From positions 135,793,036 to 135,857,035 of the forward strand of contig NC_085842.1 in the NCBI RefSeq assembly GCF_035594765.1: DNA of 64,000 nucleotides, in the 5' to 3' direction. Of this stretch, positions 59,111 through 59,497 are shown in pieces. How positions within the stretch are numbered: the first letter of the stretch is position 1; each line of letters starts with the position of its first letter. The notes under the pieces are model-generated. The model saw only the letters and a list, made by a program, of their open reading frames with translations, did not search any database and had not been told where the DNA came from. Source of the stretch: Anolis carolinensis. Its lineage: Eukaryota. Both the position numbers and the translations under genes were made by a program.

Positions 59111-59497
59111 TGTTATCGAAGGCTTTCATGGCCGGAATCACTGGGTTGTTGTGAGTTTTCCGGGCTGTACGGCCATGTTCCAGAAGCATTCTCTCCTGAC
59201 GTTTCACCCACATCTATGGCAGATATCTTCAGAGGTTGTAAGGTCTCTTGGAAATTAGGCAAGTGGGGTTTATATATCTGTGGAAGGTCCAGGTTGGGAG
59301 GAAAGAACTCTTGTCTGTTTGAGGCAAGTGTGAATGTTGTGATTGATCATCTTGATTCGTATTTAATGGCCTTGCAGCTTCAAAGCCCGTCTGCTTTCTG
59401 CCGGAGGGAAGTAATACTTGCCATAAATGTGGGTGAAACGTCAGGACAGAATGCTTCTGGAACATGGCCATACAGCCCAGGAAACTCACAGCAATCC
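59111..59497 (-). mobile_element. Penelope-like remnant with inverted segment (59418-59497)
   Basis: Homologous to 337-635; inverted arm complementary to 59143-59222. Confidence 0.78.
59195..59235 (-). ncRNA. Penelope-type minimal hammerhead ribozyme motif (core intact), sense in MRPL38 intron 1
   Basis: Minus strand CCU-CUGAAGA-uAUCUGCCAUAGAUGUGGGU-GAAACGUC-AGG. Confidence 0.62.

What the first reader, a model, noticed from the sequence alone, without database searches (positions are those of the whole stretch)
59195..59235. Core-intact hammerhead ribozyme motif in sense orientation inside MRPL38 intron 1
Seen: the minus strand (the MRPL38 pre-mRNA strand) reads CCU CUGAAGA u AUCUGC-CAUAGAU-GUGGGU GAAA CGUC AGG. 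This gives a type-I hammerhead core, a helix II, a 3-bp helix I (CCU/AGG) and a palindromic ACGU in place of helix III, with predicted cleavage after GUC. Established: Penelope-like retroelements carry such minimal hammerheads, which usually cleave poorly as monomers and better as dimers. Inference: a housekeeping pre-mRNA carries a potential self-cleavage site ~750 nt into intron 1. The element's inverted arm (59418-59497) is transcribed first and is complementary to 59143-59222, so it could sequester the GAAACGUC half and act as a built-in off switch.
Basis: partly seen in the sequence, partly recalled or inferred. Interest (0 to 1): 0.7.

Follow-up and report, generated by a model that had tools for sequence, protein, structure and literature searches.

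The report
Decayed Penelope hammerhead in lizard intron
This self-cutting RNA motif in the first intron of MRPL38 is one of more than 21,000 similar copies in the genome, spread by a known lizard jumping gene; this copy has a weakened stem, is predicted to zip up with its own mirror image, and likely does not cut the gene's RNA, so it is an ordinary insertion relic.

Summary
The motif is real and lies on the MRPL38 sense strand, 753 nt into a 1,589-nt intron 1. It is the hammerhead of the Penelope-like element Poseidon_Ac (PAc): 37 of 41 letters match the published PAc RNA (compared by eye). That RNA did not cleave without PAc protein in vitro, and no RNA-seq ends were found at its cut site (Frangieh 2024). 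A tight 35-letter pattern finds 21,362 copies in this genome. The 'off switch' arm is the family's usual insertion shape: 58 of 99 sampled copies have one, and most arm pairs are one long arm (about +117) and one short arm (about +84), as here. This copy has lost G10.1-C11.1 and the start codon. Its helix II is -2.3 kcal/mol, weaker than in all 99 sampled copies (commonest -7.3). After insertion the core decays as fast as its flanks. The arm would bury the core, but as a by-product. Spliced exon 1-exon 2 RNA is seen. Cleavage itself and conservation across species could not be tested. The scan's earlier notes report the same pattern in other lizards and animals. Verdict: ordinary, likely inert relic.

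The parts
59988..60054 (-). MRPL38 exon 1 coding part (MAAPAVRALLGRVRMGRGFSTS); the spliced contig reaches at least 60084
   Evidence: donor GTGAGT at 59987; X7 record 17
58399..59987 (-). MRPL38 intron 1, 1,589 nt
58220..58398 (-). MRPL38 exon 2 (3' end approximate)
59110..59410 (-). Long arm of a 5'-truncated Poseidon (PAc-family) insertion, -184 to +117 relative to the ORF start position 59226; 31 of 301 positions differ from the family majority
59195..59235 (-). Minimal type-I hammerhead: core intact, 3-bp helix I, palindromic ACGU, helix II weakened (A10.1-U11.1, U-G), ORF start codon lost (ATG to ATA); predicted cut 59198/59197
59110..59141 (-). One-sided 'tail' (+86 to +117), present on this arm only; it ends in the published +111 to +118 reverse-transcription start
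59411..59418 (.). Short junction between the two arms, not matching the element
59419..59498 (+). Short inverted arm (+6 to +85); lacks CUGANGA, so no hammerhead on the + strand; antisense in the pre-mRNA and transcribed first
60182..60394 (-). Separate Poseidon fragment upstream of exon 1 with a second core-intact motif (60192-60232; ACAU in place of ACGU); not shown to be transcribed with the gene

Best explanation
The motif is the hammerhead of a truncated, fold-back copy of the Penelope-like retrotransposon Poseidon_Ac in MRPL38 intron 1; it has since lost key helix II pairs, is predicted to pair with its own inverted arm into a hairpin of about 80 bp, and likely does not cleave the pre-mRNA. 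How it arose (inferred): the element's protein nicked both DNA strands and primed two cDNAs, one from the +117 start and one apparently from a start near +84, which left two head-to-head arms. How it behaves now (predicted): the antisense arm is transcribed first and captures +6 to +85 as it emerges, which buries helix II, GAAA and the cut site. Without the arm the copy would still need a dimer partner or PAc protein. It ends at +117, short of the +172 that the protein needed for insertion in vitro. The intron is spliced out (shown in one contig); the hairpin is at most a passive double-stranded RNA, perhaps A-to-I edited (untested).
For: Identity to PAc: 37 of 41 letters, and the long arm ends at +117. 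Abundance: 21,362 pattern matches, control 0; 15,670 keep G10.1-C11.1. Arm is generic: 58 of 99 motif copies (about 41 of 80 loci, counted by hand) have an upstream antisense arm over GAAACGUC; long/short pairs are 39 of 51 in the pattern-picked loci and 9 of 10 in 664 kb of unselected DNA. Decay: helix II -2.3 kcal/mol against -4.6 to -9.9 in 99 of 99 sampled copies. A10.1 with U11.1 (112 copies) is rarer than the mismatch A10.1 with C11.1 (156), and its association (OR 2.07) equals that with the ribozyme-killing G12A (OR 1.93), so it reflects age, not compensation. Core against flank after insertion: 5 of 131 vs 32 of 694 (p 0.82) and 18 of 290 vs 62 of 1,045 (p 0.89); G12 is changed in 11 of 29 copies. 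Literature: no PAc cleavage without protein and no RNA-seq ends at the site (PMC11167929); single min-HHR inactive, dimers weak (PMC4209133); splicing survives intronic hammerhead cleavage (as cited in PMC2995048).
Against: All 11 invariant core positions and C17, helix I and ACGU are intact here; only 6 of 29 unselected copies keep all of these. The 10.1-11.1 position still pairs (A-U). The raw core-versus-flank comparison favoured the core (18 of 290 vs 162 of 1,270, p 0.001) until columns that vary between subfamilies were removed. The energy model gives the fully active monomer fold a similarly low probability for this copy (9e-5) and for the commonest family 41-mer (2e-5), so it separates them only at helix II; in a 111-nt context 15 of 99 family copies do as badly as this one. 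No target-site duplication was found for this insertion (36 of 61 pairs have one). No cleavage assay or nascent-RNA end data were available.
Confidence: 0.88

Rival explanations
1. The copy cleaves at a low level when PAc protein or a host chaperone or helicase unwinds the hairpin, or when it pairs in trans with another copy, but with no effect on MRPL38 output.
For: Core, helix I and ACGU intact; the parent hammerhead is protein-assisted and PAc is expressed (PMC11167929); very many family copies could serve as trans partners.
Against: The active-competent fold costs 48.6 kcal/mol with the arm and 13.7 without it; helices II+III of a homodimer give -7.7 against -17.7 kcal/mol for the family 41-mer; the copy lacks +118 to +172; the paper found no ends at the site family-wide.
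Confidence: 0.09
2. The host has co-opted the arm plus ribozyme as a regulated switch that aborts or tunes MRPL38 pre-mRNA.
For: Sense orientation in intron 1; the arm comes first; the right junction is bridged in two other DNA-like runs from two studies (X1 record 6; X16 record 24) and no empty-site joint was among those listed; fast intronic ribozymes can abort splicing (as cited in PMC2995048).
Against: The arrangement is the family's commonest product; four substitutions in 41 nt, three of them in helix II; no excess conservation of the core across copies; no on state proposed or seen; spliced product present.
Confidence: 0.02
3. The intronic motif forms a cis dimer with the second sense copy at 60192-60232 on a transcript that starts upstream of it.
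For: Same strand, about 1 kb apart, core intact.
Against: The spliced contig reaches only 60084 (contigs cannot show a start); its ACAU would give a C-A mismatch in the 4-bp intermolecular helix III; the inverted arm also pairs with that copy (I2).
Confidence: 0.01

Closest known systems
PAc hammerhead of Poseidon_Ac, Anolis carolinensis (Frangieh et al. 2024, PMC11167929; parts 1-3 of 4 of the text read, supplement table 3 read, figures and the GenBank file not readable)
   Same: 37 of 41 hammerhead letters; ORF start at the foot of stem II; cut 26 nt after the start codon; arm end at +117 inside the +111 to +118 start; one-sided tail.
   Different: Here N7 G>A, G10.1>A (start codon lost), the next C>U and C11.1>U; truncated at +117; upstream sequence is of a divergent subfamily by eye; locked by an inverted arm.
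Minimal hammerheads (min-HHR) of metazoan Penelope-like elements (Cervera and de la Pena 2014, PMC4209133; parts 1-2 of 4 read)
   Same: Type I, long helix II, extra nucleotide between 9 and 10.1, palindromic 15.2-16.2, no helix III, mostly solitary truncated copies, and opposite-strand pairs 100-700 bp apart.
   Different: Lacks the 'highly conserved G10.1-C11.1' pair; helix I is 3 bp rather than 4-5.
Inverted, tailed insertion units of endonuclease-bearing Penelope-like elements (Arkhipova 2013, PMC3846280; Craig 2021, PMC8557442; passages read)
   Same: Head-to-head inverted 5'-truncated copy; 30-40-bp tail at one end only (32 nt here).
   Different: No ORF body and no detectable target-site duplication in this copy.
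Conserved intronic hammerheads of amniotes, RECK and C10orf118 (passages in PMC10761166 and PMC6765202; the primary paper was not held)
   Same: A hammerhead core in an intron of a host gene.
   Different: Those cleave as single motifs and are conserved single loci; this is one of tens of thousands of decaying repeats with no helix III.

Membership tests
Poseidon_Ac (Penelope/Poseidon PLE) fragment | Sequence identity to the PAc pLTR-ORF junction | tested here: met
   37 of 41 in the hammerhead and colinear to +117, compared by eye with the RNA printed in the paper
Poseidon_Ac (Penelope/Poseidon PLE) fragment | Linked to an RT plus C-terminal GIY-YIG ORF in longer copies | tested here: inconclusive
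   ORF pieces with a GVY..VYIG motif (recognised by eye, recalled motif) lie just upstream of the motif in L090, L073, L110; L004, 91% like this copy, carries the same C-terminal piece. Pfam gave only a weak RVT_1 hit (E 0.053) in 1 of 6 pieces and no GIY-YIG; PDB none
Poseidon_Ac (Penelope/Poseidon PLE) fragment | Inverted 5'-truncated arm and one-sided 30-40-bp tail | tested here: met
   Arms end at +117 and +85
Poseidon_Ac (Penelope/Poseidon PLE) fragment | Target-site duplication | tested here: not met
   None found for this insertion; 36 of 61 pairs have 8-17 nt. Optional in PLEs (PMC3846280)
PLE minimal hammerhead (motif) | CUGANGA and GAAA boxes, UH cut site | tested here: met
PLE minimal hammerhead (motif) | Extra nucleotide between 9 and 10.1; palindrome in place of helix III | tested here: met
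   U at +2; ACGU
PLE minimal hammerhead (motif) | G10.1-C11.1 pair and a stable helix II | tested here: not met
   A-U here; 112 of 21,362 copies share it; -2.3 kcal/mol, pairing probability 0.22 in the 41-mer against 0.98
Active hammerhead ribozyme | Self-cleavage at C17 | not testable with these tools
   No assay; only assembled contigs, which cannot show RNA ends
Rfam hammerhead families | Covariance-model score | tested here: not met
   No hit at E<=10; the models expect a helix III (recalled), so this does not speak against a minimal motif
Host-co-opted intronic hammerheads (RECK type) | Orthologous conservation across species | not testable with these tools
   G000 has no relatives here
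Host-co-opted intronic hammerheads (RECK type) | Full helix III and single-copy locus | tested here: not met
   No helix III; 21,362 copies

The most novel reading that the evidence does not exclude
When Poseidon is expressed, its protein chaperones sense-oriented intronic copies, this one included, into cleaving host pre-mRNAs, and the inverted arm is the brake that lets such insertions persist in essential genes; armless, intact, sense-strand copies would then be depleted from lizard introns genome-wide.
Probability: 0.04. Interest if true: 0.7.

Novelty: already known. Interest (0 to 1): 0.1.

Why it matters
As it stands it matters little: it is one decayed copy of an element whose ribozyme has already been assayed. 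It is a useful negative for the scan, because 'core-intact hammerhead plus upstream inverted arm in an intron' is the default state of this family in this genome. If the novel case held, a retrotransposon protein would be a trans-acting trigger for many latent ribozymes in host introns, and the question of what PLE hammerheads do in vivo would become testable from orientation bias alone.

Tried and rejected
Rfam scans found no hammerhead. Run search: no RNA holder listed on record, all 24 runs are contigs, so RNA ends at 59198/59197 could not be examined; table 6 was empty in both layings and repeat copies swamp the site. Compensatory G-C to A-U change as a sign of selection: rejected by the G12A control. 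Apparent excess conservation of the core: gone once subfamily-variable columns were removed or arms of one insertion were compared; that test has only 10 pairs and 29 copies. C11.1>U (5,536) exceeds G12>A (2,971) genome-wide; both arms here carry U, so U11.1 was likely inherited from the source element (a synonymous change in the ORF), not selected here. Cis dimer with the promoter-side copy: unsupported. Pfam, PDB and Atlas look-ups of the endonuclease piece gave no clear name. [quoted passage not shown] Searches for a lizard intronic case in print: 'Penelope+hammerhead+Anolis' gave 1 paper; 'hammerhead ribozyme+intron+pre-mRNA+retrotransposon+lizard' gave 0. A measured rate effect of G10.1-C11.1 loss was not found; that it lowers activity is recalled. 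Figures S1-S2 and the GenBank consensus of PMC11167929 were not readable and may give the second start site exactly; supplements of the bioRxiv preprint were not seen.

Full report
Observation. The host gene is MRPL38: exon 2 matches solved mL38 chains at E 3e-19 and a later exon matches Pfam PBP. Exon 1 starts at 60054, the donor is at 59987 and the acceptor at 58399, and one contig of run X7 joins 59988 to 58398 (the run is guessed to be RNA). The motif begins 753 nt into the 1,589-nt intron and the predicted cut follows nt 790, at 59198/59197. The inverted arm 59419-59498 matches 59221-59142 at 91% over 80 nt. Rfam has no match.

What it is. Frangieh et al. 2024 (PMC11167929; parts 1-3 of 4 read) print the RNA of the green anole Poseidon element PAc. 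By eye the window's 41-mer differs from it at 4 places (N7, G10.1, the next base, C11.1), and the two stay colinear to +117, counting from the ORF start. The paper puts the ORF start at the foot of stem II and the cut 26 nt after the start codon; both fit here, and the G10.1>A change turns ATG into ATA. The genome is therefore likely the green anole or a close relative (inferred). Longer copies carry endonuclease-like ORF pieces just upstream, recognised by eye; Pfam gave only a weak RT hit in 1 of 6 pieces.

How common. A 35-place pattern that admits this copy matches 21,362 places, reversed control 0. Of these 15,670 keep G10.1-C11.1, 156 have A-C, 112 have A-U like this copy, and 5,424 have G-U by subtraction. 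In 664 kb taken without regard to the motif (the window, 400 kb beside it, 200 kb of C3 and C4), 29 copies span the hammerhead; 13 of 29 have an intact core, 6 of 29 also keep helix I and ACGU, 5 of 29 keep core plus G10.1-C11.1. With this many copies, sense-oriented intronic ones should number in the thousands (inference; no annotation was available).

The arm. I fetched 80 loci holding 99 of the first 100 listed matches (first 3.4 Mb of C1, not a random sample). An antisense arm covering GAAACGUC lies within 1.3 kb upstream of 58 of 99 copies (about 41 of 80 loci, since both arms of a pair can be counted). Head-to-head pairs are one long arm (+109 to +122) and one short arm (+79 to +93) in 39 of 51 cases there and 9 of 10 in the unselected DNA. 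This insertion is +117/+85. Inverted truncated copies with a 30-40-bp tail on one side are described as typical of these elements (PMC3846280, PMC8557442; passages), opposite-strand hammerhead pairs were noted in 2014 (PMC4209133), and PAc nicks and extends both strands from two internal starts that bound the tail. So the 'off switch' is a footprint of insertion. That each strand uses a different start is my inference from the long/short pairing.

Folding. Helix II is worth -2.3 kcal/mol here; all 99 sampled copies lie between -4.6 and -9.9, most at -7.3. Its pairing probability is 0.22 in the 41-mer (commonest family 41-mer 0.98) and 0.0025 in 111 nt (family median 0.21; 15 of 99 are as low). 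With the arm, core positions are 6% unpaired and the active-competent fold costs 48.6 kcal/mol; without it, 13.7. Against my reading: the model rates the active monomer fold about equally unlikely for this copy and for the family 41-mer (9e-5 and 2e-5), because CUGA pairs with UCAG in both, so folding alone separates them only at helix II.

Selection. A10.1 goes with U11.1 more than chance (OR 2.07), which could look compensatory. It goes just as much with G12A, which destroys the core (56 of 2,971; OR 1.93), so both reflect older copies carrying more changes. The first core-versus-flank count favoured the core (18 of 290 vs 162 of 1,270, p 0.001). Limited to flank columns that do not vary between subfamilies it is 18 of 290 vs 62 of 1,045 (p 0.89), and between arms of one insertion 5 of 131 vs 32 of 694 (p 0.82). 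These tests are about the family and are small; selection on this one locus needs other species, which are not held. The right junction is bridged in runs X1 and X16 of two studies, and X15 holds 59198-59270 unchanged, so the insertion is not private to the assembly.

Mechanism. Shown: motif, identity, abundance, arm geometry, spliced product. Predicted: hairpin formation and loss of helix II. Inferred: no meaningful cleavage. The parent hammerhead showed no cleavage without PAc protein, and no RNA-seq reads began or ended at its site. The RNA needed the first 172 nt of the ORF for insertion; this copy has 117. A single min-HHR was inactive and dimers weak; 8 of 9 Xenopus retrozyme dimers did not cleave (bioRxiv 10.64898/2026.07.22.740005, passages). 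Even a cut might not matter: splicing survived a slower intronic hammerhead and failed with a fast HDV ribozyme (as cited in PMC2995048, passages). That preprint also reports modest depletion of retrozymes from introns, which keeps the genome-wide novel case open.

Earlier notes of this scan (unchecked AI notes, read after I had recorded my reading) describe the same arrangement in other lizards and other animals and reach the same verdict; they are not counted as evidence. The idea of A-to-I editing of the hairpin comes from one of them and is untested.

Verdict. Observation confirmed, interpretation partly supported, already known. Interest 0.1.

Noticed in passing
window 58219-58757 (-): In run X4 one contig (depth 57.7) runs from 58757 inside intron 1 through exon 2, while no listed piece of that run covers exon 1. 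It could be an alternative 5' end or retained intron; an in-frame ATG lies just upstream of the acceptor. It stops 440 nt short of the hammerhead site. Contigs cannot show a start.
   Followed up: no
window 58807-58895 and 59862-59870: An 89-bp stretch and a 9-bp stretch of intron 1 are missing in contigs of other runs (89 bp in X1; 9 bp in X1, X4, X9): likely indel polymorphisms.
   Followed up: no
window 337-1085, 45184-45372: Two more long/short fold-back Poseidon insertions; the first has a 13-bp target-site duplication. Further fragments at 2733-3190 and 12320-12404.
   Followed up: partly
window 60182-60394 (-): A second Poseidon fragment with a core-intact motif about 110-150 nt upstream of the 5'-most spliced base of MRPL38.
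   Followed up: partly
L048, L087, L104; G000:C12:26767394-26767926: Tandem arrays of short hammerhead-bearing units (periods about 220, 173, 154 and 166 nt), the setting where cis dimers could form; better candidates for active ribozymes than this copy.
   Followed up: no
genome-wide: At one CpG, C11.1>T (5,536) outnumbers G12>A (2,971), as expected if source elements with the synonymous change kept transposing while G12A ones did not.
   Followed up: partly
window 57615-57890 and 60725-61021: Two copies of another repeat, which I recall as a Sauria SINE (name from memory).
   Followed up: no
window 45603-46157 (-) and 54112-54972 (-): A RING/B-box TRIM-type exon downstream of MRPL38 and a non-LTR retrotransposon ORF remnant in an MRPL38 intron, both named by eye.
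   Followed up: no
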